The notes under the pieces: generated by a model
The model's database searches: none
The model's input: the letters and a program-made list of their open reading frames with translations, nothing else
Told to the model about the DNA's origin: nothing
Origin: Malacoraja senta
Taxonomy: Eukaryota
Direction: 5' to 3'
Assembly (NCBI GenBank): GCA_038087875.1
Contig: CM075994.1
Location: forward strand, 10,294,001-10,358,000
Length of the DNA stretch: 64,000 nt
Position numbers and translations under genes: made by a program
In this document: positions 22,195 to 52,330 of the stretch, piece by piece
Layout of the letters: every line of letters starts with the position of its first letter
Numbering within the stretch: the stretch's first letter is position 1

Positions 22195-25100
22195 ATGGCT
22201 GCGAAAGACCAGGTCGAGAGTTGGACCGAGGAAGCAGTTTGTCCCATCTGCCTGGATTTCTTCACCAATGCGGTTATACTAGAGTGCGGCCACAACTTCT
22301 GCCGCTCCTGCATCACACAGAGTTGGGACAGGGAGGCGAGTAACTCCTGCCCGGAATGTAGAGAGGAGTTTGCGGACCGCACCCTCAGGGTGAATCGGGC
22401 CTTGGTTAGACTGGCTGAGAAAGCGCGAGCACTGAGCCTGAATCTCAAAGAGAAGGAAAGTGAACTTCACTGCGAGAAACATCAGGAAGAACTGAAGCTG
22501 TTTTGTGAAATGGACAAGAAGCTGATCTGTGTGATTTGTGCAGCTGGGCGGGAACACAAGTCTCACAGCTTCATGCTGATAGAAGAAGCAATTGAATTCT
22601 ACAAGGTAAAACCAAATCACTTTAGATCACATCATTGTGTAATCTTTTCTTTATTTTCTGATATTTTCATTCTCTGATCTGAAACCCAACCCCAGGAACA
22701 GGTGAAATCTTCTTTCGAAACTCTCACAGAAAAGAAATCAGAGATGCAGGAAATGGTAGAGAAACAGAAAGAGAGCATTTCGGGAGTACAGGTGAGGCTT
22801 TGTACTATCGATTTCATTATTTTGTGTAGATTTGATCCCGATGATGTGTGTAATAAGTGGGCACCTCTATAGAGCTCAGTAGTCGAGGACAAGAGATCTT
22901 GGGAGCGGTTGAGCAGCCAAGGACTTTACTCACTGGAGCGCAGGAGTCTGAAGAATGATCTATTGCAGGTGTATAATATCATGAAAAAAATGTTAGAGTG
23001 AAAACTCAGTCTATAACACTGAGTGGGGCCTCGAGCATGCGAGGGCATAGGTTTAAGGTAAGAGGGTGCAGATTTAACACAAACATTAAGGGCAACTTTG
23101 GTAGAGGGTATATGGAATGAGCTACATGGGGGAGGTAGTTGATTCAGATACCATAACAATATTTAAAAGATATTTAAACAAATTCGTGGAGAGAAAATTT
23201 TAGAACCAGTTGGGCCAAATGCAGACAGGTGGAAATAGCGCAGATGGGACGCCTTGGTCGGTATCTAGCACCCCTTGCAGAATTACTTTATGAAGTCTGT
23301 CATTCTAAGTGGTGCTGCTGTCTGCTAGTTCTGGTGACCTGGTTCTGTCCAGTGAGGGTTAATGGACACATGAAATGGAATAGGTTGCAGGGAATTGTAC
23401 TGGGGAAATGGGAATTATGTCATTGTATGTTATTTTCACAAAATATTTCAGAATTATCAAGACGAGCTCTTGAATTGCCACGGTAATGAAATCTTCAGAT
23501 TAAATACATGTAAATGTGATTCGTGTAGATAGCATGAACATGTTGGGCCGAAAGGCATATTTCTGCACTCCAGAACTCGACATTAATTAACAAAATGTCA
23601 CCTTCCGTGTAATGAGGAAACACAGCAGAGTGACACAATATATTGATTCTCATCTTTCATCTGATAGGAAGCGTCACGCAACCTTCAGTCACAGACCACA
23701 TTCCAGTTTGCTGAACTGCACCAGATTCTCACTGTGAAAGAGCAGCGCATACTCGGAGATATCCGGGAGGATGAGGCAAAGATTGTAAAAACAATGGAGA
23801 AAAATCTTCAAGTGATACAAAATAATTTAAATTTAATTCAGAAAGAACTCTCAAAGTTACAGGAACAGATAGACCACAAGGACAGCGTGATATTTCTGAA
23901 GGTGAGGGGTTACACTACCGTTTGGTGAAGTGAAAGTGCACAGTCACAAAATGGTGGGTTACATTTCAGAAATAAATGCTGCATTTACCAGCAATTCAGT
24001 ACTGGGTCAATGTACCGTCTGTTCCATTACTCACCACATCTGACTATAATGCCCCAAATTCCAGGAATCCTCATGTATTTATCCCATTTCAACTTCACTT
24101 TATCTGCAATATTGTCTTCAGGCCACCCTGTGAGTTCCACGTTCTGTTTACTGCATTTCTTGTGAAAGTTATTAAAGGCCATCTTATATTTCAGCTTTGA
24201 ATTTTTGTCTGCCCACACGTAGTGATAATATTTCCAACCCCCACCCATTTAAATCCGCCGCTGATCTTAAAATATTCCATCCCATTATCTCTGTCATCTC
24301 CAGATAAAATCCCACGACCTGCCCGGTCTTACTCGTAAGTTGCATACTCGCAGTTATTTTCATCGACATTCCTAATGCTTTCCCCCGTGTTCGATTTCTC
24401 TACGGCAATATCCACTTTCTGTCTGTGTGACTGCGGCAAAGATTTGGGAAATGGGAATTATCGGAGGTTTTTTTTGTAGCAATTTGGTGTAATACTCGCT
24501 GTCGGGATCATGACGATCCATCTCAGTCTATTGAGATTTGTGTTTTACTTATTTCAGGAGGAAGCTGGTCGCAAGAGGAGGTAGGACTTGCTTTTGACTG
24601 AAACAATGTATGTTTTTATAGTACAGCTAAAAAAAACAGCTAATGCTTAGTTTCTAACCAACTGTTAAATATTTGCAGGGTGAGTGATGAAACCAAACCA
24701 ATGTTCGTTGCAGATAGCATGCTGCCCATTGAAAAGTATGATCAGAATTTTTTCTACAACATGGCATTGAGAGAAACATCTGATATCATCAACCGAGGTA
24801 AAACTAATATCCTTTCCATTGTTCTTTTTTAAGACATTTTTATGCAATACTTATATGTGAAGATTAATGGACTCTGGGGAAAGTATCACAGAGACAGAGA
24901 GCGAAGTTTGTTTGCAGTTGAACAAATCCTTGCTCCTGGGAGAATGGGTTTGCTGTGCTGGGTGAAATTGCATAGACTAGGCCCGTGTAGTCGAGAGTTC
25001 AGGTGTGTTAGAGGAGATCTCAGTGAAACACAATGTCCTTACAGGGCATTACACCTTACACCTTATTCCACTACCTCCGCTGGCAAAAAATCCAGGTATC

Positions 25101-26592
25101 AATAACTCTCAGGGTGAAGCAAACTTGCCACTAAGACCCACTTTAAAACTCCAACCTCTTCTGTTAAACCCGCGCCCTACAGTTTTGATATCCCTGTATG
25201 AGCATAAGGTTTGGATGATCTAGCCTCTATCTTGTTGCACACTTTGACAGACTTCCTAGCTATCCACAGTATTACCTGTTCTCCACAAACTTTGTAGCCA
25301 CACCTCCTACATTCACATCCAAGCCATGAAAATATAAGATAAAGGTTGCAGCACCGATCTCTGCTGCACACCACCAGTCCAGACCTCCAGGCAAGAAAAT
25401 CATCCTTCTACCGGTACCTTCCACCTCCAAGCACCAGGGCAATGTTGGATCTATTTACCCAGCTCGCTTGGATCCCACTTCCCTTTGGACCAGCCCTACA
25501 TGCGGAGTATTGTCAACTCCCTCGGTGAAGTTAATTTATTGTTTCACAATAAGATCAGAGTGTTCTTGGGTGTCCAGACGCAGCAAACCCACCCTCCAAT
25601 ATAGAAAGCAATTAAACAGTAGCAGATTGCCTCCACGTCCAGTCCACTCCCGTTCAGTATGATCACGGCAACTTCACCCCACATCTCTACCTCCTCTTTA
25701 ACCATCTCTAATTCCCACTCACGTCCGTCTCCTCATCTTCCAATTTACCTCACACTTGCCATGAACTGGCAAAATATTTGAATACCCGACTTATTTCTCC
25801 ATCCCCACCCGCGATCTTTCGTTCATCCTCACTTTCCGCATTCGTTTTGCCCGTCCGCACGCCTCGCCCCCTCCCGTTCCCGATAACCCGCGGAATTCCC
25901 CCTCTCCTGCTCGGTTGAGAAGCTCCGGGAAAGATATCTGTTGTCAATCCGATGTTGTTGGGGTGAAACCCTGGTCAAGGTTTCAGTTGTCCGCCCGCCG
26001 GTGCCCGAGTCTCCCACCGACCCCCGGGGACTGACTCTCTGATTCTCTGCTTCTCCCCCCAGTCTCCGTCACCCTGGATGTGGAAACAGCGCATGCGCGG
26101 CTCGAGGTGTCTGAGGATCGGAAGAGGGTGAGAAATACCGAGACCCGGAGGAGTCTCCCTGACACCGGGAAGAGGTTTACAGTGTTTGCGTGTGTGCTGG
26201 GATCGGAGGGATTCACATCGGGGAGACATTACTGGGAGGTGGCGGTGGCGGGGAGTGAGGGCTGGTGTCTGGGAGTCGCCGCAGAGTCTGTGGATAGGAA
26301 AGGAGAGGACGAGCTGATCCCGGAGACTGGAGTCTGGAGCATCTGGCGGCAGGGTGACGGGTTTGAAGCATTCACCTCCCCTCCATCCCCTCTCCCCGGC
26401 CGTCCCATCCCCAGGAGGGTGGGAGTTTACCTCAGTTACGAGTCCGGGACAGTTTCATTTTACGACGCGGACACCAAGTCCCATCTCCACACCTTCACTG
26501 GGAATAAATTCACGGAGAAACTTTATCCTTTCTTCGAGACTTATGAAGACCAGTGGCTGAGAATCTGCTCCGGTTCCGCTCCGGGTGTGTAA
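22195..26592 (+). CDS. TRIM RING-B-box2-CC-PRY/SPRY, copy 2, 470 aa, intact
   Basis: Exons 22195-22605, 22696-22791, 23668-23901, 24558-24580, 24679-24797, 26063-26592; GT-AG, in phase, 1413 nt. Confidence 0.93.
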
Positions 26593-28174
26593 AAGGGTCG
26601 GGTCCCGGGACCGGCGTCAGGAGCGGGGCTCAGGGGCTGTGGGGCAGAAACCCGGTGGGCAACAGGTCGGCGCTGAACGGCTCCCATTTAATCCCCAAAT
26701 TCCGCGTCGTGAAACAAACCCCAGTGAGTGAGCGCGGAAATAAAACCAGGGGGAATGTAAATGTGGGAAGAGTGAAATAAACAGCAACTGTCGATCAGAG
26801 CTGTCTGTCGATCCGTTCATTTTAACGCGTTAACCGCGTCCGGCAAAGGAACAGAAATTACTTTTGTGAAAATATAAAGATTGAAACAATCTCCCTTCCC
26901 GCGGGTTCAGCAGCAGCCGCGCGCGGCGGGTCCTGAGCTCCGGGCTCCCCCGGGTCCTAAGGTCCGCCCTCTAATTTAGACTATCTAATGGAATATTCCC
27001 TCCAAGATCGAGTGCGTACAGCAACAACCCACAATGTCCTCGCATCTCTTTTAGCAGACCCCAAAGTGCTTTTCAGGCGTAAATCGATTTAAAGTGCAGT
27101 CATGAATGGCAACTGAAATGCAGGAATGAATTTGCAGACAGAAACATTCACAGAGTTTAAAAGCAAGTTATACTGTCCAAATATATTTAGTTTTATTTCA
27201 GTTGCAGCATTAGAAGCACCGAGCACATAATTCGGAAAATAAATCTTTCTATTCGGTTCTTGTGAATGTGACCGGTCGTGGGATTTGTCCAAATTCAACC
27301 AGAGGATATTACATTTATCTATTGCATTAATCTATTAATATATAATATCGTCAACGGTTTTAATTTCAGTGATCCAATCCCTTTTACATTTTTTCACTCT
27401 GATTATGTGGCTCTGTGACCTTCATTTACGCAATCTACCAGGTGAATCTTTAATCACCACCCTCAGCCCAGGAGAGGGAAAGGGTCATGAGTTTTTAATT
27501 GTCATACGTACCGTGACGGAGTAATTAAATTATTTCTTGCCTTAACCTGAGCTTCCAACTATGTCACTCCTCATGAGTTTCCCTCCCTAAACTGTGGGGC
27601 ACACAACTTCTCTTCCTGACTCCAATGTTAGTAAATATTCCTTGCTCCTCACTCAAGGAATGTTGCCATTCCATCCCCATGTCCTTAATCTTCCAGACTT
27701 GTAATCAGCATTCCCAACTCCTAACTACGTGGGTTGCAAAGTCTCTGACTCAGACGTTTTTGCCTGAGCCCAGACCTATGTTGTGTGGGTGGACAAAGCT
27801 GAGATAGTCAAGTGGGCTTGGGATGGGTTCGCAGTTTATCGGGCAGGATCTGGGGAGAGAGTACCTGAATTGGCATTCCGAGTCTCTGGTCGGAATTTGC
27901 CCTGACCCTGTCACTCCCGCTGCACATTAAAACATTTTCTGTTATTGATGTTGTTGAAGTCCTGGATTCACGGAGACATGAAAGTCTGCAGATGCTGCAA
28001 TCTGCAAACCTGCATCAAGTCGTCCTGATTCTGGGTCACGGCCCTTGACACTTATTCCCCATAAATGGTTCTTTATCCTTTTAATTCTACCAGATGCTTA
28101 TTTCTCGCTGCTGCATTGAGGAGCTCTCCACTATTCCACCTCATGCAGGTCAGGAAATGTTCTTTGCATTGCCG

Positions 28175-28390
28175 CAAGTAGACAAAAAATGCTATAGAAG
28201 TTCGGCGGGTGAGGCAGCATCTACCGAGAGAAGGAATAGGTAACGTTTCGGGTCGAGACCCTTCTTCAGGGCGACGTTTAGGGCTGAGACCCTTCTTCAG
28301 GGGACACCCGCTAATGCCTCACCCGCTGAGTTCCTCCAGCGTTTTTTGTCTACTTTCGATTTTTCCAGCATCTGCAGTTGCTTCTTGGAC
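28175..28390. mobile_element. Penelope-derived inverted element with tandem hammerhead-like motifs (paralog 40513-40720)
   Basis: Reverse strand reads CTGAAGAagggtctcagcccTAAACGTC (28273-28300) then CTGAAGAagggtctcgacccGAAACGTT (28241-28269), flanked by inverted pLTR arms. Confidence 0.72.
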
Positions 28391-29587
28391 ATTGCATTAC
28401 CGCCTTCAGCCACCAGATGGTGATGCAGAGCTGTCCAAAAGTTTGTGCAATTTCGCCCAGCAGGATCCCCACCTGCTGCAGGAAACCGGTACTGCAGGAT
28501 CGGCTTGGGGACTAAGTGGAATATTTGTAACTCTTTGTATACATCACTCAGGATGCGTCCCAGCGCATCTAGAAGATGTCTATTTTTCACTCTGAAGTCT
28601 GGCTCAGCCAGTGGCACCTAGGAATATACTGGGTGACAAACAAGAATAGTTTGGTGACTACTGGAGAGACAGTTGACGCTACGGAAAGACGGCACCCGGG
28701 ACAGGCTGTGTTAGCACCCCAGTCTGTGTCTTTCGTGAGAAAGTCACCCAACAAAGCTACGGAAAGGCCTAATGAACCACCAAGACCGAGGCGAGAATGA
28801 AATGCTCGGAGAAGGAGAAAGCGGTGCAGCGCGCAGGCCTTGAACGTGGCGAGACGCTGGAGGAGCCTGCACTCAATTCTCGCACTCGTACCAACATCTC
28901 CCCTCACCCTCACCTATTCCCCCTTCCCTCCACCCCCACACCAACCTACGCTGGGGTCACATTAAGCAGCCAATTCAACGAGAGCCCCTCACGCCTTCGG
29001 GAAGTGGACGGAAACCGGAGCACCTGCGGGAAAAGCACGTGGGGACGGATTGAATGAACCAAGTACACACAGGCAGAACCCACGTCGTTGGATCTCGCTG
29101 GCGGCTGCTGTGATCACTGGAACACTTCACCAGCCACAGCAGCTTTTGTGATGGGGCAGTGCAGTGAATTTATCGACAAAATAAGATGCACGCCACCCGG
29201 ATAAATCGTTATCGATTTATATTGCAGATATATGGGGAGAAGGCAGGCATATGGGGAGAAGGCAGGCACGGGTTATTGATTGGGGACGATCAGCCATGAT
29301 CACAATGAATGGCGGTGCTGGCTCGAAAGGCCGAATGGACTCCTCCTGCACCTGTTTTCTATATGTTACTTTCTTTGCAGAATTTCCAAAAAATTCCAAA
29401 AGTCTCTGCGCGTGAGGCCACGATCAGTACTAGGTGGCCCTCCGGATCACAGACAACACGGGCGATGAACACAAACACAGGCGGGTGTGAAACACCGAGC
29501 CCGCCCCCCTTCCACCCACGGCACTCACCGCAACCACCCGGCCCCACCTGCAACAGTGTCTCCAGTCCCAAACTGGTTTAGGTCTAG

Positions 29588-30300
29588 GTTCATCATTTTC
29601 GCGTTTACAATGGTTTAAATGAAAGTAAGCATGCAGGTACAGCTGGCAGGGAAGAAAGCGAATGGCATGTTACCCTTCGTAACAAGAGGAGTTGAGTATA
29701 GGAGCAAATAGGTCCTTCTGTAGTTGTATGGGGCCCTAGTGAGACCGCACCTGGAGTGTGCAGTTTTGGTCCCCTAATTTGAGGAAGGACATTCATGCTA
29801 TTGAGGGAGTGCAGCGTAGGTTCACAAGGTTAATTCCCGGGATGGCGGGACTATCATATGCTGAGAGAATGGAGCAACTGGGCTTGTATACTCTGGAGTT
29901 TAGAAGGATGAGAGGATATCTTATTGAAACATAAGATTATTAAGGGTTTGGACACGCAAGAGGCAGGAAACATGTTCCCGATGTTGGGGGAGTCCAGAAC
30001 CAGGGGCCACAGCTTAAGAATAAGGGATAAGCCATTTAGAACGGAGATGAGGAAACACTTTTTCACACAGAGAGTCGTGAGTCTGTGGAATTCTCTGCCT
30101 CAGAGGGCGGTGGAGGCCGATTCTCTGGATATTTTCAAGAGAGAGAGCTAGATGGGGCTCTTAAAGATAGCGGGGTCAGGTGATATGGGGAGAAGGCAGG
30201 AACGAAGTACTGATTGGGGATGATCAGCCATGATCACTTTGAATGGCGGTGCTGGCTCGAAGGGCCGAACGGCCTACTCCTGCACCTATTGTCTATTGTT
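29588..30300 (+). mobile_element. CR1-type LINE 3' fragment, second subfamily (paralog 41910-42600)
   Basis: Translates [20 protein letters not shown]...FFTQRVVSLWNSLP; 3' hairpin and tattgtc tail. Confidence 0.9.
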
Positions 30301-31776
30301 TTGCATACTATCCAGTCAAATTAGATAATACCAACGATAAACACAATCAAGTCAAACTCCAGTATAATAGATAGGGGAAAGGGACAGTTACAATGTGCAG
30401 CATACAGTTCTCAGCATTGCAGCGTCACAACCCGCTAACATTTATACAATGTCCTCGCATCTCTTTTCGGAGACCACAGAGTGCTTTACCTGCGTAAATC
30501 ACATTGAAGTGCAGCCAGTAATGGCAACGGGAATCCAGAACCTCATCAATGAAGGCCCAGAGTACAACATCAGGACATAGTCACAAAAAGCTGGAGTAAC
30601 TCAGCGGGACAGGCAGCATCTCTGGACAGAAGGAGTGGGTGACGTTTCGGGTCGAGACCCTTCTTCTGACTGTGAGTCAGGGGAGAGGGAAGCGAGAGAT
30701 ATAAACGGTGATATAAAGAGATACAGAAATTGGTGAAAGAGTCCGAACAAGGGTCTCGACTCGAAATGTTACCCATTCCTTCTCTCGTGAGATGCTGCCT
30801 GTGCTGCTGAGATACTCTAGCATTTTGTGACTGTCTTCGATTTAAACCAGCATCCGCAGTTCCTTCCTACATCATTAGGAGGTTATGTTGCATTGGTGTA
30901 AACACAGGTTTGGACCCAACTGGTGCATCAAGCCTATTGCTGGTCACTAAACTTAATATATGAAGCGAGGATCATCGGGAGGGCGCAGGAGATATTCACT
31001 GGAATGGTTTCAAGGATGGGGAGATTCGGGTGGTAGGTGAGGCTGGAGAAGCGGGTGCAGGTTCTCTGTGGAGAAGGGAATATGAAAGCTTTCACAGAGG
31101 GTTCAAGCTCGGGTCCGGTGTGGAGAGGGGGATGAGGGGGCGGGGGGGGGAGGTCTTTCCCATCTGTGCGAGGTTCAAATGAGCACAGTATTGAGAGAGA
31201 GAGAGAGAAGCAACAAGGGGAATATGCCTCGGAGTGTAGGAAGAATTGCAGATGCTGGTTTAAACCGCAGATAGACACAAAATGCTGGAGTAAAGCAGCT
31301 GGACAGGCAGCATCTCTGGAGAGAAGGAATGGGTGACGTTTCGGGTAGAGACGGTCTCCGGCATTTTGTGCCTATCTAAGGGGAATAAGGCTTTGCAGTT
31401 TAGTTTATTGTCCCGTATTTCTACGTACAGTGAAATACTTTTGTTGCGTGCTCTCCAGTCAGCAGGAAGACAATACATGATTACAATCGAGCCACTTACA
31501 GTGTACAGATACTCGACGATGGAATAACGTTTAGTGCAAGGATAAGCCAGCAAAGTCCGATCATAGTTAAAGTGAGAAATGTTGAGGTGGGTGTAGAGAT
31601 TTAAGAGTGTGGGGCGATTGTAATATGTGAATGAGATCTGCATCGCACGCAAATAGACGCCTTGGTTGGGCGCCATCTCGGAAGCATTAGCGGCAAGAGT
31701 GACCTGCAGGGGCGGTGGAAATGCTGCCAATTGGGCTTTCGAATCTGAGTGTTCCGTGTTCCACACTCACTGATTC

Positions 31777-32217
31777 CACGGTGGCGCAGCGGTAGAGTTG
31801 CTGCCTTGCAGCGCTTGCAGCGCCAGAGACCCGGGTTCAATCCCGACTACGGGTGCTGTCTGTACGTTCTCCCCGCGTGGGTTTTCTCCGAGATCTTCGG
31901 TTTCCTCCCACACATCTAAAGATGTACAGGTATGTAGTTTAATTGGCTTGGTGTATGTGTACAATTGTCCCTAGTGTGTGCAGGATAGTGTTAATATTCA
32001 GCCTGACGAAAGGTCTCGACCCGAAACGTCACATATTCCATCGCTCCATAGATGCTGCCTCATCCGCTGAGTTTCTCTAGCATTTTTGTCACCCGTTAAT
32101 ATGCGGGGATCGCTGATCGCACCGGCTAGTCATCCGGACTCGGTGGGCCGAAGTGCCTGTTTTCGCGGTGTATCTCTAAAGTAAACTAAATTAAACTAAA
32201 CTAAACTAAACTAAACT
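31777..32217 (+). mobile_element. V-SINE interrupted by a short Penelope fragment (paralog 44073-44499)
   Basis: SINE head, V-domain and (aaact)n tail. Insert 31998-32094 is flanked by the 8-bp duplication gttaatat (31990-31997, 32095-32102). Confidence 0.85.
32003..32030 (+). ncRNA. Minimal type I hammerhead ribozyme core (Penelope-associated)
   Basis: CTGACGA-aaggtctcgaccc-GAAAC-GTC. Stem I pairing is poor, so activity is uncertain. Confidence 0.55.
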
Positions 32218-33199
32218 GATCAGCAGACAAATTGAATCTTTGCAAACTGCAATAAATGTTAGAGGATCATATAATATCCTTTAAACAATACAGGCATAGA
32301 TTGCCCCGTAGACTGCTGCATGAGAGACAGGTGCACTGTTGTGGAATAAAATAAACGCGGAGGGAGTTCTCCGTCCTCCCTGATCCCGGACTGTGAACGG
32401 AGATGCGGGCGTCGGGTTCCACTGCACAACAGGTGCAACGCGTCCTCAGGTTACACCCGAGGCTTCCTTTGCGCCGGGACCAGTCCATTTCTGTCCTGCC
32501 TTAGTCGTTCCCAAGTCTATATTCAGGCCAGTTTAATGTCCAATCTACCCCTTCCTTGCGTGAGATGAGTTGGAAGCGGCCAGGACATCTTCTCACTGAA
32601 CACTTGCAGCCAAATAGCATTCATTGCCCGGGACGGCAGCGGGCGCAGTGACACGGTACTGTAGGGGTTGAGTTTAATTTAGTTTAGAGATACAGCGCGC
32701 AAACAGGCCCTTCGAGTCGAGACTGTCTGAAGTAGGGTCTCGACCCGAAACGTCACCCATTCCTCCTCTCCAGAGATGCAACCTGTCCCGCTGCATTACT
32801 CCAGCATTTAGTGTCTGTCGAATGCGAAAAAGGCTTTCCAGTTTAGTTTATTGTCACGTGTATCGACGTACAGTGAAATCCAGTCTGCAGAAAAATATAT
32901 GATTACAATCGAGCCGCTTGCAGTGTACAGATACTCGATGATGGAATAACGTTTTGTGCAAGGTTAAACCAGCAAAGTCCGATCATAGTTAAAGTGAGAA
33001 ATGTTGAGGTGGGAGTAGAGATTTAAGAGTGTGGGGCGATTGTGATATGTGATTGTAGATCTGCATCGCACGCAAATAGACGCCTTGGTTGGGCGCCATC
33101 TCGGAAGCATTAGCGGCAAGAATGACCTGCAGGGGCGGAGGAAATGCTGCCAATTGGGCTTTCGAATCTGAGTGTTCCGTGTTCCACTCTCAATGATTC

Positions 33200-33490
33200 C
33201 ACGGTGGCTCAGCGGTAGAGTTGCTGCCTTGCAGCGCTTGCAGCGCCAGAGACCCGGGTTCGATCCCGACTACGGGTGCTACATTCTCCCCGCGTGGGTT
33301 TTCTCCGAGATCTTCGGTTTCCTCCCACATCTAAAGATGTACAGGTATGTAGTTTAATTGGCTTGGTAAATGTGTAAAATTGTCCCTGGTGTGTGCCGGA
33401 TAGTGTTAATATGCGGGGATCGCTGTTCGGTGCGGACTTGGTGGGCCGAAGGACCTGTTTTCGCGGTGTATCTCTAAACTAAATTAAACT
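33200..33490 (+). mobile_element. V-SINE (paralog 45673-45962)
   Basis: TGGCTCAGCGG A-box, GGTTCGATCC B-box and V-domain. Confidence 0.85.
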
Positions 33491-33937
33491 GATCAGCAGA
33501 CAAATTGAAACTTTGCAAACTGCAATGAATGTTAGACGGCCATATAATATCCTTTAAACAATACACGCAAAAATAGATTGCCCCGAAGACTGCTGCATGA
33601 GAGACAGGTGCACTGCTGAGGATTAAAATAAGGGCGGAGGGAGGTCTCCGTACATCCTGATCCCGGGCTGTGAACGGAGATGCGGGCGGCGGGTTCCACT
33701 GCCCAACAGGTGCAACGTCTCCTCAGGTTACACCCGAGACTTCCTTCGCCCCGGGCCCGGTTCCTTTCTGTCCTGCCTTAGTCTTTCTCGTCCATATTCA
33801 GGCCAGTTTAATGTCCAATCTACCCCTCCCCCGTGTGAGATGCGTTGGAAGCGGCCAGGACATCTTCACACTGAACACTTGCAGCGAAATAGCATTCATT
33901 GCCCGGGACGGCAGCGACGCGGTACAGAAGTGGTTGA

Positions 33938-34214
33938 GTTTAATTTAGTTGAGAGATACAGGACCAGCGATCCCCGGACATTAACACTATCCTACACCCA
34001 CTAGCGACATTTTTAACATTTACCAAGCCTTTTTTATAAACATTTACCAAAAATGGGAGTGTGGGGGGAACCGAAGATCTCGGAGAAAACACACGCAGAT
34101 CACGGCGAGAACCTACAAACTCCGTACAGACGGCACCCGTACTCAGCATCGAACCAGGGTCTTTGGGACTGCATTCGCTGCAAGGCAGCAACACTACCGC
34201 TGCGCCACGGTGAC
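33938..34214 (-). mobile_element. V-SINE, inverted, upstream of TRIM copy 3
   Basis: Paralog of 21805-22118. Confidence 0.82.
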
Positions 34215-34290
34215 GGTCACGTGACCATGACCATATTCAGCAGCTTCACGTCAGTGAATACATTTTGAAACAGTAAGTGGAGAATTTAAA

Positions 34291-37200
34291 ATGGAAAGAC
34301 CAGGTCGAGAGTTGGACCGAGGAGGCAGTTTGTCCCATCTGCCTGGATTTCTTCACCGATGCGGTTATACTGGAGTGTGGGCACAACTTCTGCCGCTCCT
34401 GCATCACACAGAGTTGGGACAGGGAGGCGAGAAACTCCTGCCCGGAATGTAGAGAGGAGTTTGTAGACCGCAGCCTCAGGGTGAATCGGGCCTTGGTTAG
34501 ACTGGCTGAGAAAGCTCGAACACTGACCCTGAATCTCAAAGAGAAGGAAAGTAAACTTCACTGCGAGAAACATCAGGAAGAACTGAAGCTGTTTTGTGAA
34601 ACGGACAAGAAGCTGATCTGTGTGATTTGTGCAGCTGGGCGGGAACACAAGACTCACAGCTTCATGCTGATAGAAGAAGCAATTGAATTCTACAAGGTAA
34701 AACCAAATCACTTTAGATCATTGTGTAATCTTTTCTTTATTTTCTGATATTTTCATTCTCTGATCTGAAACCCAACCCCAGGAACAGGTGAAATCTTCTT
34801 TCGAAACTCTCACAGAAAAGAAATCAGAGATGCAGGAAATGGAAGAGAAACAGAAAGAGAGCATTTCGGGAGTACAGGTGAGGCTTTGTACTATCGATGT
34901 AATTATTTTGTATAGATTTGATCCCGATGATGTGTGTAATAAGTGGGCACCTCTATAGAGCTCAGTCGTCGAGGACAAGAGATCTTGGGAGCGGTTGAGC
35001 AGCCAAGGACTTTACTCACTGGAGCGCAGGAGTCTGAAGAATGATCTATTGCAGGTGTATAATACCATGAAAAAATGTTAGAGTGAATACTCAGTCTTTT
35101 AGGTTTAAGGTAAGAGGGTGCAGATTTAACACAAACATTAAGGGCTACTTTGGTAGCGGGTATATGGAATGAGCTGCCAGGGGGAGGTAGTTGATTCAGA
35201 TACCATAACAATATTTAAAAGATATTTAAACAAATTCGTGCAGAGAAATTTTTAGAACCAGGTGGGCCAAATGCGGACAGGTGGAAATAGCGCAGATGGG
35301 ACGTCTTGGTCGGTATCTAACACCCCTTGCTGTATGACTCTATGAAGTCTGTCATTCTAAGTGGTGCTGCTGTCTGCTAGTTCTGGTGACCTGGTTCTGT
35401 CCAGTGAGGGTTAATGGACACATGAAATGGAATAGGCTGCAGGCAAATGTACTGGGGAAATGGGAATTATATCATTGTACGATATTTTCACAAAATATTT
35501 AAGAATTATCAAGACGGCTCGAATTGCCACGGTAATGAAATCTTCAGATTAAATACATGTAAATGTGATTAGTGTAGATAGCATGAACATGTGGGGCCGA
35601 AAGGCATATTTCTGCACTCCAGAACTCGACATTAATTAGCAAAATGTCACCTTCCGTGTCATGAGGAAACACAGCAGAGTGACACAATATATTGATTCTC
35701 ATCTTTCATCTGACAGGAAGCGTCACGCAACCTTCAGTCACAGACCACATCCCAGTTTGCTGAACTGCACCAGATTCTCACTGTGAAAGAGCAGCGCATA
35801 CTCGGAGATATCCGGGAGGATGAGGCGAAGATTGTAAAAACAATGGAGAAAAATCTTCAAGAGATACAAAATAATTTAAATTCAATTCAGAAAGAACTCT
35901 CAAAGTTACAGGAACAGATAGACCACAAGGATGGCGTGATATTTCTGAAGGTGAGGGGTTACACTACAGTTTGGCGAAGTGAAAGTGCACAGTCACAAAA
36001 TGGTGGGTTACATTTCAGAAATAAATGCTGCATTTACCAGTAATTCAGTACTGGGTCAATGTACCGTCTGTTCCATTACGCACCACATCTCCCTATAATG
36101 CCCCAAATTCCAGGAATCCTCATGTATTTATCCCATTTCAACTTCACTTTATCTGCAATATTGTCTTCAGGACACCCTGTGAGTTCCACGTTCTGTTTAC
36201 TGCATTTCTTGTGAAAGTTATTAAAGGCCATCTTATATTTCAGCTTTGATTTTTTGTCTGCCCACACGTAGTGATAATATTTCTAACCCCCACCCATTTA
36301 AATCCGCCGCTGATCTTAAAATATTCCATCCCATTATCTCTGTCATCTTCTCCAGATAAAATCCCACGACCTGCCCGGTCTTACTCGTAAGTTGCATACT
36401 CGCAGTTATTTTCATCGACATTCCTAATGCTTTCCCCTGTGTTCGATGTCTCTACGACAATATCCACTTTCTGTCTGTGTGACAGCGGCAAAGAGTTGGG
36501 AAATGGGAATTATCAGTGTTTTTTTGTAGCAATTTGGTGAAATACCCGCTGTCGGGATCATGACGATCCATCTCAGTCTATTGAGATTCGTGTTTTACTT
36601 ATTTCAGGAGGAAGCTGGTCGCAAGAGGAGGTAGGACATGCTTTTGACTGAACCAATGTATGTTTTTATAGTACAGCTAAAAAAACCAGCTAATGCTTAG
36701 TTTCTAACCAACTGTTAAATATTTGCAGGGTGAGTGATGAAACCAAACCAATGTTGGTTGTAGATAGCGCGCTGCCCATTGAAAAGTATGATCAGAATTT
36801 TTTCTACAACGTGGCATTGAGAGAAACATCTGATATCATCAACCGAGGTAAAACTAATACCCTTTCCATTGTTCTTTTATAAGACATTTTTATGCAATAC
36901 TTATATGTGAAGATTAATGGACTCTGGGGAAAGTATCACAGAGACAGAGAGCGAAGTTTGTTTGCAGTTGAACAAATCCTTGCTCCTGGGAGAATGGGTT
37001 TGCTGTGCTGGGTGAAATTGCGTTGACTAGGCCCGTGTAGTCGAGAGTTCAGGTGTATTAGAGGAGATCTCAGTGAAACACAATGTCCTTACAGGGCTCA
37101 GTGGGCTGGATGCAGGGAGGATGTTTCCCCTGTCTGAGGGGTCCGGAGTCAGCGGAAACCCTCTCAGTATGTGGGCTGGACCATTTAGGACAGAGACAAG

Positions 37201-38990
37201 GAGACATTACTGCACGCAGAGACTGGGCAACAATTTGGAATGCCCTGCACTGGTAGTTGTGAAGATTCAGTCATTCAGTGCTCTTGGTGCCAGAGAGCCA
37301 TGGTTGTACCTTACAGAGTCAGGCCCTTCGGCCCAACGTATCCATGTCCACCTTTTTTTCCCAGCTATACTAATCCATTTGCCCACATTAGGACCTTGTT
37401 ATTCTACACGTCATTTGTTAAACCGTAATGCCTCTTAAATGTAGTGATTACACCTTATTCCACTACCTCCTCTGGCAAAAATTCCAGATATCAATAACTC
37501 TCGGGGTGAAGTAAACTTGTCACTAAGACCCACTTTAAAACTCCAACCTCTTGTGTTAAACCCGCGCCCTCCAGTTTTGATATCCCTGTATGATCATAAG
37601 GTTTGGATGAACTAGCCTCTATCTTGTTGCAAACTTTGAGACTTCCTTGCTATCCACAGTATTACCTGTTCGCCACAAACTTAGTAGTCACACCTCCTAC
37701 ATTCACATCCAAGCCATGAAAATAGAAAATAAACAGCAAAGGTTGCAGCACCGATCTCTGCTGCACACCACCAGTCACAGACCTCCAGGCAGGAAAATCA
37801 TCCCTCTACCGGTACCTTCCACCTCCAAGCCCCAGGGCAATGTTGGATCTATTTACCCAGCTCGCTTGGATCCCACTTCCCTTTGGACCAGCGCTACATG
37901 CGGAGTATTGTCAACTCCCTCAGTGAAGTTAATTTATTGTTTCACAATAAGATCAGAGTGTTCTTGGGTGTGCAGACGCAGCAAACCTGCCCTCCAATAT
38001 AGAAAGCAATTAAACAGTAGCAGATTGCCTCCACGTCCAGTCCACTCCCGTTCAGTATGATCACGGCAACTTCACCCCACATCTCTACCTCCTCTTTAAC
38101 CATCTCTAATTCCCACTCACGTCCGTCTCCTCATCTTCCAATTTACCTCACACTTGCCATGAACTGGCAAGATATTTGAATACCCGACTTATTTCTCCAT
38201 CCCCACCCGCGATCTTTCGTTCATCCTCACTTTCCGCATTCGTTTTGCCCGTCCGCACGCCTCGCCCCCTCCCGTTCCCGATAACCCGCGGAATTCCCCC
38301 TCTCCTGCTCGGTTGAGAAGCTCCGGGAAAGATATCTGTTGTCAATCCGATGTTGTTGGGGTGAAACCCTGGTCAAGGTGTCAGTTGGCCGCCCGCCTGT
38401 GCCCGAGTCTCCCACCGACCCCCGGGGACTGACTCTCTGATTCTCTGCTTCTCCCCCCAGTCTCCGTCACCCTGGATGTGGAAACAGCGCATGCGCGGCT
38501 CGAGGTGTCTGAGGATCGGAAGAGGGTGAGAAATACCGGGACCGAGAGGAGTCTCCCTGACACCGGGAAGAGGTTTACACACTGGGAGTGTGTGCTGGGA
38601 TCGGTGGGATTCACATCGGGGAGACATTACTGGGAGATGGAGGTGGCGAGGAGTCGGGACTGGAGTCTGGGAGTCGCGGCAGAGTCTGTGGATAGGAAAG
38701 GAGAGGACGACCTGACCCCGGAGACTGGAGTCTGGAGCATCTGGCGGCAGGGTGACGTGTTTGATGCCTTCACCTCCCCTCCATCCCCTCTCCCCGGCCG
38801 TCCCATCCCCAGGAGGGTGGGAGTTTATCTCAGTTACGAGTCCGGGACAGTTTCATTTTATGACGCGGACACCAAGTCCCATCTCCACACCTTCACTGGG
38901 AATAAATTCACGGAGAAACTTTATCCTTACTTCGAGACTTATGAAGACCAGTGGCTGAGAATCTGCTCCGGTTCCGCTCCGGGTGTGTAA
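34291..38990 (+). pseudogene. TRIM copy 3, frameshifted by a 5-bp deletion after the ATG; otherwise intact
   Basis: ATGGAAAGAC versus ATGGCTGCGAAAGAC in the paralogs; exon 1 is 34291-34696 (406 vs 411 bp); stop at 34450-34452. Exons 34782-34877, 35717-35950, 36608-36630, 36729-36847 and 38461-38990 are all open with GT-AG. Confidence 0.85.
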
Positions 38991-44297: not shown

Positions 44298-44325
44298 CTG
44301 ACGAAGGGTCTCGACCCGAAACGTC
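44298..44325 (+). ncRNA. Minimal type I hammerhead ribozyme core (Penelope-associated)
   Basis: CTGACGA-a-gggtc-tc-gaccc-GAAAC-GTC: full core, paired stem II, palindromic ACGT stem III. Stem I pairing is poor. Confidence 0.6.
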
Positions 44326-46725: not shown

Positions 46726-47135
46726 GGTCACGTGACCATGACCATGTTCAGCAGTGTCACGTCAGAGAAAACCTTTTGAACCAGGAAGTGGCGGATTTAA
46801 AATGGCTGCGAAAGACCAGGTCGAGAGTTGGACCGAGGAGGCAGTTTGTCCCATCTGCCTGGATTTCTTCACCGATGCGGTTATACTGGAGTGTGGGCAC
46901 AACTTCTGCCGCTCCTGCATCACACAGAGTTGGGACAGGGAGGCGAGAAACCCCTGCCCGGAATGTAGAGAGGAGTTTGTGGACCGCAGCCTCAGGGTGA
47001 ATCGGGCCTTGGTTAGACTGTCTAAGAAAGCGCGAGCACTGAGCCTGAATCTCAAAGAGAAGGAAAATAAACTTCACTGCGAGAAACATCAGGAAGAACT
47101 GAATCTGTTTTGTGAAACGGACAATAAACTGATCT

Positions 47136-47305
47136 GGAGAAACTCAGCGGGTGCAGCAGCATCTATGGAGCGAAGGAAATAGGTAACGTTTCGGGCCGAA
47201 ACGTTACCTATTTCCTTCGCTCCATAGATGCTGCTGCACGCGCTGAGTTTCTCCAGCATTTTTGTGTACCTTCGATTTTCCAGCATCTGCAGTTCCTTCT
47301 TTAAC
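47136..47305. mobile_element. Fold-back Penelope-derived insertion with 15-bp TSD
   Basis: TSD acaataaactgatct at 47121-47135 and 47306-47320. Palindrome 47134-47256. Confidence 0.9.
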
Positions 47306-47994
47306 ACAATAAACTGATCTGTGTGATTTGTGCAGCTGGGCGGGAACACAAGTCTCACAGCTTCATGCTGATAGATGAAGCGATTGTATTCTACAAGGTA
47401 AAACCAAACCGATTTTGTTCACTTCATTGTTTAATATTGTCTTTTTTGTCTGACATTTTTATTCACTGATTTGAAACCCAACCCCAGGAACAGGTGAAAT
47501 CTTCTTTCGAATCTCTCTCAGATATGAAATCAGAGATCGAGCAAATGGAGCAGCTACAGAAAGAGGGCATTTCTGGAGTTCAGGTGATGCTTTGTATTAT
47601 TGATGTAATTATTTTGTGTAGGATTGATGCCTGTGATGCTTGTAATAAGTGGACAAATCTATAGAGCTCAGTAGTCGAGGACACGAGATCTTGGGAGCGG
47701 TTGGGCAGCCAAGGACTTTATTCACTGGAGCGCAGGAGTCTGAAGAATGATCTATTGCATGTGTATAATATCACGAAATAAAATGTTAGGGTGATTACTC
47801 AGTCTTTTTCCCTGAGTGGGGCGTCGAGCATGCGAGAGCATTGGATTAAGGTGAGAGGGAACTTTGGTAGTGGGTATATTGAACGAGCTGCCAGGGGAGG
47901 TAGTTGATTCAGGTACCATAACAATATTTAAAAGATATTTGAAGAAATTGGTGGATAGAAAATGCGCACAGGTGGAAATAGCGCAGATGGGGCA

Positions 47995-50280
47995 ATGGAC
48001 AACAGAAAATAGAAAAAAAGGTGCAGGAGTAAGCCATTCGGCACCGCTATTCAATGCGATCATGGCTGATCATCCCTAATCAGTACCCCGTTCCTGCCTT
48101 CTCCCCATATCCCCTGATTCCGCTAACATTTAGAGCCCTATCTAGCTCTCTCTTGAAAGTATCCAGAGAACCAGCCTCCACCAACCTCTGAGGCAGAGAA
48201 TTCCACAGACTCACAACACTCTGTGTGAAAAAGTGTTTCCTTATCTGCGTTCTAAATGGCTTACCCCTTATTCTTAAACTGTGGCCTCTTGTTCTGAACT
48301 TCCCCACCATCGAGAACATGTTTCCTGCCTCTACCGTGTCCAAACCCTTAATAATCTTATATGTTTCCATAAGATCCCCTCTCAACCTTCTCAATTCCAG
48401 AGTATACAAGCTCAGCCGCTCCATTCTCTCAGTATATGACAGTCCCGCCATCCCTGGAATTAACCTTGTAAACCTACACTGCACTCCCTCAATAGCAAGA
48501 ATGTCCTTCCTCTAATTAGGGGACAAAAACTGCAGGTGTGGTCTCACTAGGGCCCTGTACAACTGCAGAAGGACCTCTTTGTTCCTACACTCAACTCCTC
48601 TTGTTAGGAAGTCCAACACGCCATTCACTTTCTTCACTCCCTGCTGTACCTGCATGCTTGATTTCATTGACTGATGAACAAGCACCCCCAGATCCCGTTG
48701 TACTTCCCATTTGCCCAACTTGACACCATTTAGATAATAATCTGACCTCATATTTGTGCTACCAATGTTGATAACCTCACATTTATCCACATTAAACTAT
48801 ATCTGTCCACTCACCAACTTGTCCTAGTCACCCTGCATTCTCATAGCATCCTCCTCAGAGTTCCCACTGCCACCCAGCTTTGTATCATTTGCAAATTTGC
48901 TAATGTTACTTTGAATTCCTTCATTCAAATCATTGATGTATATTGTAAATACCTGCGGTCCCAGCGCTGAGCCTTGCGGTACCCCACTAGTCACTGCCTG
49001 CCATTCTGAAAGGGACCCGTTAATCCCGACTCTTTGTTTCCTGCCTGCCAACCACTTCTCTATCCATGTCAGCACTCTACCCCCAAAACATGTGCCCTAA
49101 TTTTGCCCATTAATCTATGTGGGACCTTATCAAATGCTTTCTGAAAGTTCAGGTACACTGGCTCTCCCTTATCAATTTTTGTAGTTACATCCTCAAAAAA
49201 TTCCAGAAGTTTAGTCAAGCATGATATCCCCTTCGTAAATCCATGCTGACTCGGACCGATCCTGTTACTGCTATCCAAATGTGCCGCTATTTCATCTTTT
49301 ATGATTGACACCAGCATCTTCCCCACCACCGATGTCAGGCTAACTGGTCTATAATTCCTTGTTTTCTCCCTCCCGCATTTATTTAATAGTGGGATAACAT
49401 TCGCTACCCTCCAATCCACAGGAACCGATCCTGAATCTATAGAACATTGGACAATGATCACCGATGCGTCCACGAATTCTAGAGCCAGTTCCTTAAATAC
49501 CCTGGGATGCAGACCATCAGGCCCTGGGGATTTATTAGCCTTCAGTCCGTTTAGTCGACCCAACACCATTTCCTGCCTAATGTGGATTTCGTTCAGTTCC
49601 TCCGTCACCCTAGATCCTCTGGCCACAAGTACATCAGGAAGTTTGTTTGTGTCCTCCTTAGTGAAGACGGATCCAAACTACCTTTTCAACTCATCTGCCA
49701 TTTCTTTGTTCCCTATAATAAATTCACCTTTTTCGGTCTTCAAGGGTCCTGCTTTGGTCTTAACTAATTTTTCCCACTTCACATACCTAAAGAAGCTTTT
49801 ACTATCCCCTTTTATATTCTTTTCTAGCTTACCTTCGTACCTCATCTTTTCTCCCCGTATTGCCTTTTTGGTATCTTCTGTTGCTCTTTAAACATTACCA
49901 AATCCTCTTGCATCCCGCTCGTTGTACTTCTCTTTTATTTTTATACCGTCCCTGACTTTCCTTGTCAGCCACGGTCGCCCGTTATTCCCCTTGGTATCTT
50001 TCTTCCTCTTTGCAATAAACTGATCCTGCACCTTCTGTATTATTCCCAGAAATACATGCCATTGTTATTCCAATGTTATCGCTGCTATGGTATCTAACCA
50101 ATCAACATTGGCTAGCTCCTCCCACATGTCTCCATAGTCCCCTTTGTTCAACTGTAACACTGACACGATTTACCCTTCTCCCTCTCAAATTGTAGATTAA
50201 AACTTACCATATTATAGTCATTACCTCCTAATGGCTTCTTAACCTCAAGTTCCCGTTATCAAATCCAGTTCATTACATAA
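47995..50280 (-). mobile_element. CR1-type LINE, degenerate, in intron 2 of copy 4
   Basis: RT fragments in ORFs 48080-49626 (SPGPDG, QHGFTKG, GVPQGS). Confidence 0.92.
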
Positions 50281-51754
50281 GGTCTAGTCGGTTACATTAC
50301 TTTCACCAGATATTTCAAAATTATCAAGACGAGCTCTTAAATTGCCAAGGTAATGATAGCTATGGATTACATACGGGTAAATGGAATTAGTGTAGATACG
50401 TACAGAGCTCAGCATGGACATGTTGGCAAGAATGGCCTATTTCTGCACTTCAGGACTCGAGATTCACTAGCAAAATGTCACCTTCCATGTCATAAGGAAA
50501 CACAGCAGTGGCATAATATATTGATTTTAATCTTTCATCTGTCAGGAAGAGTCACAAAACCTTCAGTCACTGGTCACATCCCAGTTTGCTGAACTGCAGC
50601 AGATATTCACTGAGAAAGAGCAGCGCTTACTTGGAGATATCCAGGAGGAAGAGAAAAATATTGTAAAAAGAATGAAGAAAAATCTTCAAGAGATTCAAGA
50701 GAATTTAAATTCCATTCAAGAGGAACTCTCAAAGTTACAGGAACTCATCGATCACAAGGACGGCGTGATATTTCTCAAGGTGAGGGGTTACACTACAGTT
50801 CGGTGAAGTGAAAGTGCACAGTCACAATATGGTGGGTTAAATTTCTGAAATGCTGCATTTACCAGTAATTCAGTACTGGGTCAATGTTCCGTCTGTTCCA
50901 TCTACTCACCACAATCGACAATAACGCCCTAAATTCCCCTCTCAACATAATGGACATTCGGCCCATCCACTGCTGTCAGTTTTCCTGCTCTGCACAAGCC
51001 TCTCCCCACCCACTCACAACATCTACCAGCAGTGCCCACAGTTGCCACATCTCTCGTGGTTATTCACCTATATCCACCTCCCCATGAAATTACCACTCCT
51101 GTGGTAGAGGGTTCTATATTATCTTGACTGAATCACTAGTGGAACTTGAAAGAACACCTGATATTTCTTCTTCAATTCACTTTCTTATCATTATCTTATA
51201 TTTCAATGTTTAATCTTGCACTAAATGTTGTACCCTTTATCCTTTATCTCTACACTGTGGATGGCTTGTTTTTATTCATGTACAGCCTTTTATTTGACAG
51301 GATAGCATGTAACCAAAGGCTTTTCACCGTACCTCAGTACACGTGACTATAATAAGTTCAGAAGTTCAGAAGAGATAGGTATAGAATTTGCCCATCAAGT
51401 CTACTCCGCCATTCAATCGTGGCTGATCTACCTGTCCTAATCACATTCTCTGCCTTCTCCCCATACCCCTGACACCCGTACAAATCAAGATAATATTAAA
51501 TTCCGTTTATTTTCCTTTAATTAGCCATAAAACCTCATGAAGTGCGCAGTCTTTCCGGTAAGTTTGATCCTCAGATCAATGGCAGATTGTTCACTATCAC
51601 TCCTTACACATTCCCCGTTAGTTCTTTGTTCATTCGTGTAATACCCTCAATCCGTGTCAGCAGTGGGTCAGAGTTGGGAAATGGGAATTTTCAGCTGCTC
51701 CTAAAGTTCTATGTAATTGTAACGGTTGTGATATGAACCACGAGTAACAATAAA

Positions 51755-52330
51755 TTCTGAAAAAAAGATCAAGTGCTGGAGCAACTCAGCGGGTTAGGCA
51801 ACATCTGTGGGGGATTTGGATGGGTGACGTTTTCGGTCGGGACCCTTCTTCAGATTGTTGTTGTGAGGGGTGGGGAGCTGGAAAAGCGATGTAGTTCGAC
51901 AAAGCCTCATGACAGGCAAAGGATACAGGCGAGAGAGGTCTGCCTGGCAGTTGGATGGACATCGGCTAGAGATGAAAAGAGTAGAAAAGGGGCCAGATAA
52001 AAAAAGAAGAGAGATATGTTAAGCCAGATGGAAGATTAGAGGAGTAAACAAACTGAGGGGATGTGAAAAAGAGCGCGTTGGTGCGGAAAGTGGAAGCTCA
52101 TTAGGCTGGGCACATGGAAGAAATAGGGTAATGCGGAGAGAGATGGAGTTACCTACAATTGGAGATTTCAATGTTCATTCTGCTGTGTTGTAAACTACCC
52201 GAGCGGAATATGAGGTGCCGATCCTCCATTTTGCGTGTGACCTCACTCTGTCAATGGAGGAGGCCTTGGACTGGAAGGACAATATGGAAATGAGAAGTGG
52301 AGTTGGAATGTTGTGCAACCGGGATGTTCC
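51755..52330 (-). mobile_element. Penelope-like element 3' remnant (end of GIY-YIG, 3' UTR, hammerhead-like motif)
   Basis: Reverse strand encodes ..RKMEDRHLIFRSGSLQHSRMNIEISN and contains CTGAAGAagggtcccgaccGAAAACGTC at ~51826-51853. Confidence 0.7.

What the first reader, a model, noticed from the sequence alone, without database searches (positions are those of the whole stretch)
26063..38990. PRY/SPRY hypervariability between near-identical duplicates
Seen: copies 2 and 3 differ at about 17 of 170 B30.2 residues with only about 4 synonymous changes (manual count). Changes are clustered: [56 protein letters not shown]. Copy 1 differs at the same sites (WTRTR, TNNPR, ENRGWR, WVTL). The rest of the domain and the intergenic DNA are almost identical, and some codons differ at 2-3 bases (GTG TTT GCG vs CAC TGG GAG). 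Known: B30.2 variable loops determine target specificity in TRIM5. Inference: diversifying selection and/or patchwise gene conversion from paralogs.
Basis: partly seen in the sequence, partly recalled or inferred. Interest (0 to 1): 0.72.

Follow-up and report, generated by a model that had tools for sequence, protein, structure and literature searches.

The report
Skate TRIM binding-pocket variant library
Two neighbouring, nearly identical skate immune-type genes differ mostly at the residues that line the predicted target-binding pocket, and across more than 80 sister copies these residues were likely diversified by selection and reshuffled by short gene-conversion swaps, a pattern already known from bony-fish TRIM and NLR genes.

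Summary
Observation confirmed: the B30.2 exons of copies 2 and 3 differ at 17 non-synonymous and 4 synonymous codons of 176. The pair alone does not show selection (dN/dS 1.6, p=0.18; the RBCC part shows 18:7). The family does. This skate genome holds at least 150 B30.2 exons 77-100% identical. In 85 of them, 28 of 174 codons have omega about 9 (M2a vs M1a LRT 1041), and 12 of the 17 differences fall on 25 family-wide hypervariable sites (p=2e-8). These sites include all six positions aligned to the BTN3A1 ligand pocket. Gene conversion is supported: exon 4-fold sites diverge 2.4% against 15-17% in introns, and linkage decays within about 15 bp. No exact donor was found for 2 of 3 patches searched. 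Copy 3's start codon is out of frame in this assembly. A butyrophilin-type gene appears to share the exon. The mechanism is known from zebrafish finTRIM, btr and NLR-B30.2; I found no paper on skates, but this scan noted it in another skate genome (e1-10275040).

The parts
7979..12728 (+). TRIM copy 1, six exons (7979-8389, 8478-8573, 9441-9674, 10331-10353, 10452-10570, 12196-12728), open 471-aa RING-B-box-CC-B30.2 frame
   Evidence: all 5 introns GT-AG
22195..26592 (+). TRIM copy 2, six exons (22195-22605, 22696-22791, 23668-23901, 24558-24580, 24679-24797, 26063-26592), open 470-aa frame
   Evidence: Pfam RING, B-box, weak TRIM_CC, PRY, SPRY
26063..26592 (+). B30.2 (PRY/SPRY) exon of copy 2
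   Evidence: model pLDDT 95.1, TM 0.94 to TRIM21 PRYSPRY 2iwg_B
26134..26148 (+). Variable patch, codons 24-28 (NTETR), start of the loop after strand 21-24
26182..26190 (+). Variable patch, codons 40-42 (VFA vs HWE); codon 41 aligns with BTN3 pocket residue 351
26239..26268 (+). Variable patch, codons 59-68; codon 68 aligns with BTN3 H378; a 23-nt stretch (GSEGWC) is shared exactly with two paralogs on other contigs
26305..26319 (+). Variable patch, codons 81-85; codon 83 aligns with BTN3 K393
26338..26373 (+). Alternating variable sites 92, 94, 96, 97, 99, 101, 103 on the strand 90-96 / 99-102 hairpin; codon 101 aligns with BTN3 R412
26530..26547 (+). Variable patch, codons 156-161; codon 158 aligns with BTN3 R469
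25960..26840 (.). Approximate homogenised island: exon plus about 100 bp of intron and about 250 bp of 3' flank, 3-7% divergent between paralogs against about 19-22% further out
   Evidence: 250 random paralog pairs; edges approximate
34291..38990 (+). TRIM copy 3, six exons; frame open from 34295 but the ATG at 34291 is out of frame
   Evidence: splice joints 34694/34780, 36628/36727, 36845/38459 seen in RNA-guess contigs of relatives
34291..34297 (+). Site of the 5-bp deletion after the start codon of copy 3; absent from its closest sister (L097)
   Evidence: not confirmed by reads
38461..38990 (+). B30.2 exon of copy 3
38757..38768 (+). Codons 99-102 of copy 3: three changes in 11 nt (one silent) where the sister L003 matches copy 2 instead; candidate conversion patch
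   Evidence: no exact donor
46802..52800 (+). TRIM copy 4, broken: insertion in exon 1 (about 47135-47310) and no B30.2 exon found in the window

Best explanation
These are tandem RING-B-box-coiled-coil-B30.2 (TRIM) genes of a skate, members of a family with at least 150 related B30.2 exons, whose predicted ligand-binding face has likely been diversified by positive selection while short germline gene-conversion events likely keep the rest of the exon uniform and re-deal the variable patches among copies. Shown: the differences, their position on family-wide hypervariable codons, omega well above 1 at 28 codons, low silent divergence of the exon relative to its introns, and short-range linkage. 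Inferred: new pocket residues arise by point mutation, are favoured because they give a new target specificity, and spread as tracts of tens of bases between paralogs, so a fresh duplicate gains a new pocket before its introns have diverged 3%. Inferred from TRIM5/TRIM21-type biology and untested here: the proteins dimerise by the coiled coil, bind cytosolic pathogen-derived targets with B30.2 and ubiquitinate them with the RING.
For: Pair: hypervariable codons pN 0.272 vs pS 0.035; other codons pN 0.015 vs pS 0.034. Family (85 exons): M2a vs M1a LRT 1041, omega2 9.2 on 17% of sites, 28 sites with posterior >0.95. Grid with free synonymous rate: mean beta 9.8 vs alpha 2.2 at the 25 sites. Three segments with their own trees: LRT 91, 146, 51; omega2 7.8-8.9. 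Five simulations with neutral variable sites, four of them with conversion: LRT at most 16.4 against 401 for the matching 33-gene set. Structure: model pLDDT 95.1, TM 0.94 to 2iwg_B; sites 41, 68, 83, 101, 107, 158 align by my hand count with pocket residues H351, H378, K393, R412, R418, R469 (alignment; residues from PMC4303140); 6 of 6 are among the 28 selected sites and copies 2 and 3 differ at 4 of 6. Conversion: in 33 genes 4-fold divergence is 2.4% in the B30.2 framework, 8.6% in the RING exon, 14.7-17.1% in introns; B30.2 silent divergence stays near 2% whatever the adjacent intron shows (rho -0.10); AU rejects the RING tree on B30.2 data (p=4e-45; framework only 2e-6). r2 falls from 0.068 (3-15 bp) to 0.023 (>240 bp); near/far ratio 2.64 against at most 1.23 in 60 of 60 no-recombination simulations. 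At 11 of the 12 differing hypervariable codons... both alleles or the rarer one recur in other paralogs for 10 of 12 (all but codons 40 and 41).
Against: Pair dN/dS not significant (p=0.18) and the RBCC part of the pair has a similar ratio (18:7). The RING-B-box exon also rejects M1a (LRT 71-75, omega2 3.6), so part of the signal may be recombination or relaxed constraint in dead copies. PHI was significant in only 1 of 7 settings (hypervariable sites, 30 bp, p=0.001; others p=0.08-0.84). Exact whole-patch donors: 0 other matches for the copy-3 99-102 patch, 0 for the copy-2 40-42 patch, 2 for the copy-2 63-68 patch. Synonymous rate is itself about 2.5-3 times higher at the variable codons. 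The exons were picked by similarity to copy 2, which inflates the homogenisation estimate. Copy 3 may not be translated. No binding or antiviral data.
Confidence: 0.8

Rival explanations
1. Positive selection on recurrent point mutations alone, with no meaningful gene conversion; shared codons are convergent and low silent divergence reflects constraint on codons or splicing.
For: No exact donor for 2 of 3 patches; PHI mostly not significant; neighbouring pocket residues could be co-selected and give short-range linkage; the RING exon is also below intron divergence (8.6% vs 15%).
Against: Seven-fold lower 4-fold divergence than the adjacent intron, extending into about 100 bp of intron and the 3' flank; long-range r2 less than half that of tree-like simulations; fewer distinct codons per variable site than simulated (9.7 vs 13.9); a three-site topology switch among copies 2, 3 and L003 that includes a silent change.
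Confidence: 0.1
2. No positive selection: the variable codons are merely unconstrained or mutation hot spots, and conversion lowers dS in the framework and so inflates omega.
For: Synonymous rate is raised at variable codons (4-fold 7.7% vs 2.6%); many copies are broken (stops listed); recombination is known to inflate site tests (PMC2657112, passages).
Against: beta exceeds alpha at 25 of 25 sites with free alpha. In five neutral simulations, variable-site amino-acid difference of 0.57-0.76 came only with 4-fold divergence of 0.38-0.52, whereas the data show about 0.6-0.7 with 0.024. Variable and invariant codons alternate one by one, which tracts cannot produce without selection.
Confidence: 0.06
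3. Copies 2 and 3 are two alleles of one locus placed in tandem by the assembler, or differences are consensus errors among collapsed paralogs.
For: Many family members sit on short unplaced contigs and 3 of 88 intact exons had an identical twin; no reads of this individual could be laid.
Against: Copies differ by 2-3% and by indels across 10 kb; a third close copy lies 113 kb upstream (L003); differences are in frame and fall on family-wide variable codons, also seen in annotated proteins of two other skates.
Confidence: 0.04

Closest known systems
Zebrafish btr (TRIM39-like), trim35/hltr and finTRIM multigene families (PMC3137616: section 7 and passages read; PMC2657112: passages)
   Same: Large RBCC-B30.2 families; hypervariable B30.2 sites under positive selection (omega 3.3-5.7 under M2a for btr and trim35); recombination breakpoints in btr and finTRIM; weaker selection signal in RING-B-box.
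   Different: Cartilaginous fish lineage; far more similar copies (77-100% identity, at least 150 exons); higher omega (about 9); exon-limited homogenisation measured against introns. Orthology to btr was not tested; PMC2657112 found no finTRIM in elephant shark.
Zebrafish NLR-B30.2 family (PMC4852459, passages read)
   Same: Proposes positive selection plus conversion tracts shorter than the B30.2 exon, spreading and recombining variants across groups.
   Different: Carrier is NACHT-LRR rather than RBCC; here the second carrier appears to be a butyrophilin-type receptor.
TRIM5alpha / TRIM21 PRYSPRY and BTN3A1 B30.2 (2iwg, 6j0g; PMC4303140 passage)
   Same: Same fold (TM 0.93-0.94); variable positions coincide with the sheet-A ligand pocket.
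   Different: Those are single or few genes diversified mainly between species; 41-45% identity only; ligand here unknown, and the basic phosphoantigen residues are not conserved.
Reptile harbiTRIM cluster (PMC12262214, part 1 of 4 read)
   Same: Clustered non-mammalian TRIM paralogs with distinct antiviral profiles; gives a functional precedent.
   Different: Function shown there, not here; relationship to the skate family not tested.
RefSeq 'zinc-binding protein A33-like' / 'TRIM39-like' / 'nuclear factor 7-like' models of Leucoraja erinacea and Rhinoraja longicauda
   Same: 79-86% identical B30.2, same architecture, about 470 aa, same framework and variable positions.
   Different: Automatic names only; no analysis found in the papers searched.

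Membership tests
Class IV TRIM (RBCC-B30.2) | N-terminal RING | tested here: met
   Pfam zf-RING_UBOX E=4.5e-13 and zf-C3HC4 in copy 2
Class IV TRIM (RBCC-B30.2) | B-box | tested here: met
   PF00643 E=8.6e-9
Class IV TRIM (RBCC-B30.2) | Coiled coil | tested here: inconclusive
   TRIM_CC E=4.4e-5 on exon 3 alone, 23.8 bits, below the 30-bit cut-off; 50% identity to the same region of annotated skate TRIM P0040
Class IV TRIM (RBCC-B30.2) | Single-exon C-terminal PRY+SPRY | tested here: met
   PRY and SPRY above cut-off; one exon; TM 0.94 to TRIM21
Class IV TRIM (RBCC-B30.2) | Intact reading frame | tested here: inconclusive
   Met for copies 1 and 2; copy 3 start out of frame; copy 4 broken
Positively selected B30.2 multigene families (finTRIM/btr/hltr type) | Multigene expansion | tested here: met
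   150 of 150 scored matches at 77-100% identity, 828 first-look candidates; matches are not copy numbers
Positively selected B30.2 multigene families (finTRIM/btr/hltr type) | omega>1 at sites on the ligand face | tested here: met
   mapping by alignment, not by 3-D distances
Positively selected B30.2 multigene families (finTRIM/btr/hltr type) | Recombination or conversion among B30.2 exons | tested here: met
   PHI mostly negative
Teleost finTRIM or btr proper | Orthology (monophyly with teleost ftr or btr) | not tested
   No cross-vertebrate tree built
Antiviral restriction TRIMs (TRIM5alpha-like) | Interferon induction, target binding, E3-dependent restriction | not testable with these tools
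   Only spliced contigs of family members in RNA-guess runs of relatives

The most novel reading that the evidence does not exclude
Skates keep a germline, combinatorial library of hundreds of B30.2 pockets: one exon cassette, held uniform by conversion that stops about 100 bp outside it, with five or six variable patches dealt almost independently among copies, and drawn on by two unrelated carriers, cytosolic TRIM ligases and membrane butyrophilin-type receptors. A butyrophilin-type locus in this genome (IgV and TM exons, no RING exon found in the 30 kb examined) ends in an exon nested among the TRIM ones, 5.3% divergent at framework 4-fold sites and sharing the same short flanks, and annotated butyrophilins of two other skates carry the same framework. 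That would link intracellular restriction and gamma-delta T-cell-type sensing to one evolving recognition pool.
Probability: 0.35. Interest if true: 0.68.

Novelty: new member of a known kind. Interest (0 to 1): 0.44.

Why it matters
It extends the selection-plus-conversion mode of B30.2 evolution from teleosts to cartilaginous fish, in an unusually clean case where copies are close enough to see pocket residues change faster than introns. It gives a ready set of natural pocket variants on one scaffold for studying how B30.2 specificity is encoded, and raises a testable link between TRIM and butyrophilin recognition modules. The mechanism itself is not new.

Tried and rejected
Single-sequence fold failed (pLDDT 38.4); refolded with a 74-sequence alignment. 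Pairwise dN/dS as proof of selection: rejected (p=0.18). PHI on all sites and on non-variable sites: not significant; no-recombination simulations showed the all-site version is biased by rate clustering. Donor searches: none for two patches. Multiple alignment of flanks gave inflated distances; replaced by anchored pairwise alignments. Sequencing runs: no RNA holder listed and no run holds half the words; no laid contig spanned the copy-3 deletion, which proves nothing either way. Literature: 10 searches listed no paper on a skate or shark TRIM-B30.2 expansion; PMC8455134 and PMC6795676 had no relevant passage (term finds only); PMC12841164 (passages) notes butyrophilins in cartilaginous fish, with 0 occurrences of TRIM. 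A 2022 Immunogenetics paper on recurrent expansions of B30.2-associated receptor families in fish (recalled, not read, not listed) may cover this. No supplements were read.
Full report
Setting. The window is G000:C18:10,294,001-10,358,000 of a 1.94-Gb assembly. The closest named homologs of the B30.2 exon are 79-86% identical models from two skates, named A33-like, TRIM39-like or nuclear factor 7-like, so the organism is a skate. The window holds a tandem array with a 12-14 kb unit: copy 1 (7979-12728) and copy 2 (22195-26592) give open six-exon frames of 471 and 470 aa; copy 3 (34291-38990) is open from 34295 but its ATG is out of frame; copy 4 (from 46802) has an insertion in exon 1 and no B30.2 exon in the window.

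Observation. Flanking DNA differs at 1.9-3.4%. The pair ratio alone is not significant (dN/dS 1.61, p=0.18), although non-synonymous divergence exceeds pooled flank divergence (5.5% vs 2.5%, p=7e-4). The RBCC part of the pair has 18 non-synonymous and 7 synonymous codons in 292, so an excess of replacements is not confined to B30.2.

Family data set. A six-frame search gave 150 matches of 150 scored, from 828 candidates. I took 91 exons: the top 85, five more on C18, and copy 1. Three broken ones (L011, L055, L087) and three identical twins were dropped, leaving 85. The set is biased towards similarity to copy 2, and unplaced contigs may include haplotigs. With copies 2, 3 and their sister L003 left out, 25 of 174 columns have entropy of 1.3 bits or more; 12 of the 17 pair differences fall there (p=2e-8). 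In the pair these codons have pN 0.272 and pS 0.035, the rest pN 0.015 and pS 0.034. Of the other five differences (48, 59, 60, 63, 85), four involve an allele seen in 0 of 82 other paralogs and look like ordinary point mutations.

Selection. My own GY94-type code gives M2a over M1a by LRT 1041, omega2 9.2 on 17% of sites, 28 sites with posterior >0.95. A grid with free synonymous rates keeps all 25 hypervariable sites at P>0.99 (30 sites >0.95 overall), while showing alpha about 2.5 times higher there. On 33 genes with both exons (33 of 34 intended pairs, paired by position and strand), B30.2 gives LRT 401, omega2 9.2, and the RING-B-box exon LRT 71, omega2 3.6. Three B30.2 segments with separate trees each stay significant (91, 146, 51), and five single simulations with neutral variable codons, four with conversion, gave LRT at most 16.4. 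The RING result warns that some inflation is present, but not of this size.

Structure. The model (pLDDT 95.1) matches TRIM21 PRYSPRY at TM 0.94 and BTN3 B30.2 at 0.93. Variable sites lie in the loops after strands 21-24, 54-60, 66-73 and 153-159 and alternate along strands (66, 68; 92, 94, 96; 99, 101; 156, 158), as expected for one sheet face. Counting by hand along the alignment to 6j0g, a BTN3A3 mutant, positions 41, 68, 83, 101, 107 and 158 correspond to H351, H378, K393, R412, R418 and R469, the pocket residues named in PMC4303140 (one passage read). All six are among the 28 selected sites (about 1e-5 by hand under a lenient null that ignores burial), and copies 2 and 3 differ at four. 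No 3-D distances were computed.

Conversion. Over 250 random paralog pairs, divergence is 3-7% within 100 bp upstream of the exon and 3-7% for 250 bp after the stop, rising to 17-21% and 22% beyond. In the 33 paired genes 4-fold divergence is 2.4% in the B30.2 framework, 8.6% in the RING exon and 14.7-17.1% in introns; B30.2 silent divergence is 1.8-2.6% in all four bins where the adjacent intron is 3-50% diverged; AU tests reject each exon's tree on the other's data. Linkage falls from r2 0.068 at 3-15 bp to 0.023 beyond 240 bp, flat in 60 of 60 tree-like simulations (ratio 2.64 vs at most 1.23). Silent divergence is graded 7.7%, 5.7%, 2.6% at, beside and away from variable codons, as expected if selection protects variants from homogenisation. 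Locally, L003 is copy 3's sister (about 1% flank divergence) and shares 14 of the 17 replacements, but at codons 99, 101 and 102 it matches copy 2: three switches in 11 nt, one silent, with all three copy-3 alleles present in other paralogs (10, 45 and 5 of 82). Against: PHI was significant in 1 of 7 settings; exact donors were absent for this patch and for copy 2's 40-42 patch and present (2 paralogs) for copy 2's 63-68 patch. The direction of any single event is not established.

Copy 3. It is the only one of 50 RING exons with the 5-bp loss after ATG (L122 has a different, 1-base shift). The sister L097 is intact, so the loss is recent and postdates the 14 shared replacements. Reads of this individual were not available; contigs of four other runs showed only intact starts and none spanned the site. 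It is a young pseudogene, a RING-less product from a later ATG, or an assembly error. Contigs from two RNA-guess runs of relatives show GT-AG joints at three of the five predicted introns, which supports the gene model and expression of the family in relatives, not of these copies.

Shared exon. Annotated skate butyrophilin-like proteins (IgV, Ig-C, TM, B30.2 in P0054) carry the same B30.2 framework (5 of 6 candidates printed). In this genome four full-length IgV exons are 75-82% identical to P0054. For one, C4250, I read 30 kb: IgV, TM and B30.2 exons lie in order on one strand, with no RING exon and no Ig-C hit; its B30.2 is 5.3% divergent at framework 4-fold sites from the 85 exons, nests among them and shares their short flanks. 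It is more divergent in protein than typical paralogs (19.6 vs 10.6 framework differences), and the splice link is not shown.

Comparison and verdict. Positive selection and recombination in B30.2 are published for zebrafish btr, trim35/hltr and finTRIM (PMC3137616, PMC2657112), sub-exon conversion across groups for NLR-B30.2 (PMC4852459), and B30.2 sharing between finTRIM and NLR (PMC2657112). Ten searches of an open-access library listed nothing on skates; subscription papers are largely missing, and no supplements were read. Function against pathogens is inferred, not shown.

Noticed in passing
G000:C4250:96,460-123,867 (L146-L148), minus strand: Butyrophilin-type IgV and TM exons followed by a B30.2 exon of the TRIM-type family, no RING exon found in between; near-identical copies of the IgV exon on C2668 and C4250:271,371.
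   Followed up: partly
window 34291-34297: 5-bp loss after the start codon of copy 3 puts the ATG out of frame; unique among 50 RING exons; unverified by reads.
   Followed up: partly
window 54098-59675: PIF/Harbinger-type transposon: DDE_Tnp_4 transposase frame on the minus strand (57090-57896, E=7.7e-35), a second plus-strand ORF set (54607-56031) and 48-nt, 77% terminal inverted repeats; it lies where copy 4's last exon would be expected. Proximity to a TRIM cluster recalls reptile harbiTRIM but is probably coincidence.
   Followed up: partly
window 46802-52800: Copy 4 has an insertion of about 175 bp in its B-box exon and LINE fragments in intron 2; a further orphan exon-2 fragment lies at 63019-63117.
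   Followed up: partly
window 1305-5107, minus strand: Broken L1-like element (endonuclease and reverse-transcriptase frames, AT-rich), distinct from the many CR1/L2-type fragments at 1-914, 14360-16006, 18963-20253, 48041-49800 and 59835-62700; family names are recalled, not tested.
   Followed up: no
RING-B-box exon family (L096-L145): Six sites with posterior >0.95 for omega>1 (positions 14, 28, 60, 74, 123, 129); may be real, as reported for finTRIM RBB, or a recombination artefact.
   Followed up: no
window 31454-33412 and 43749-45884: A 545-bp segment is duplicated inside each intergenic unit (93% identity).
   Followed up: no
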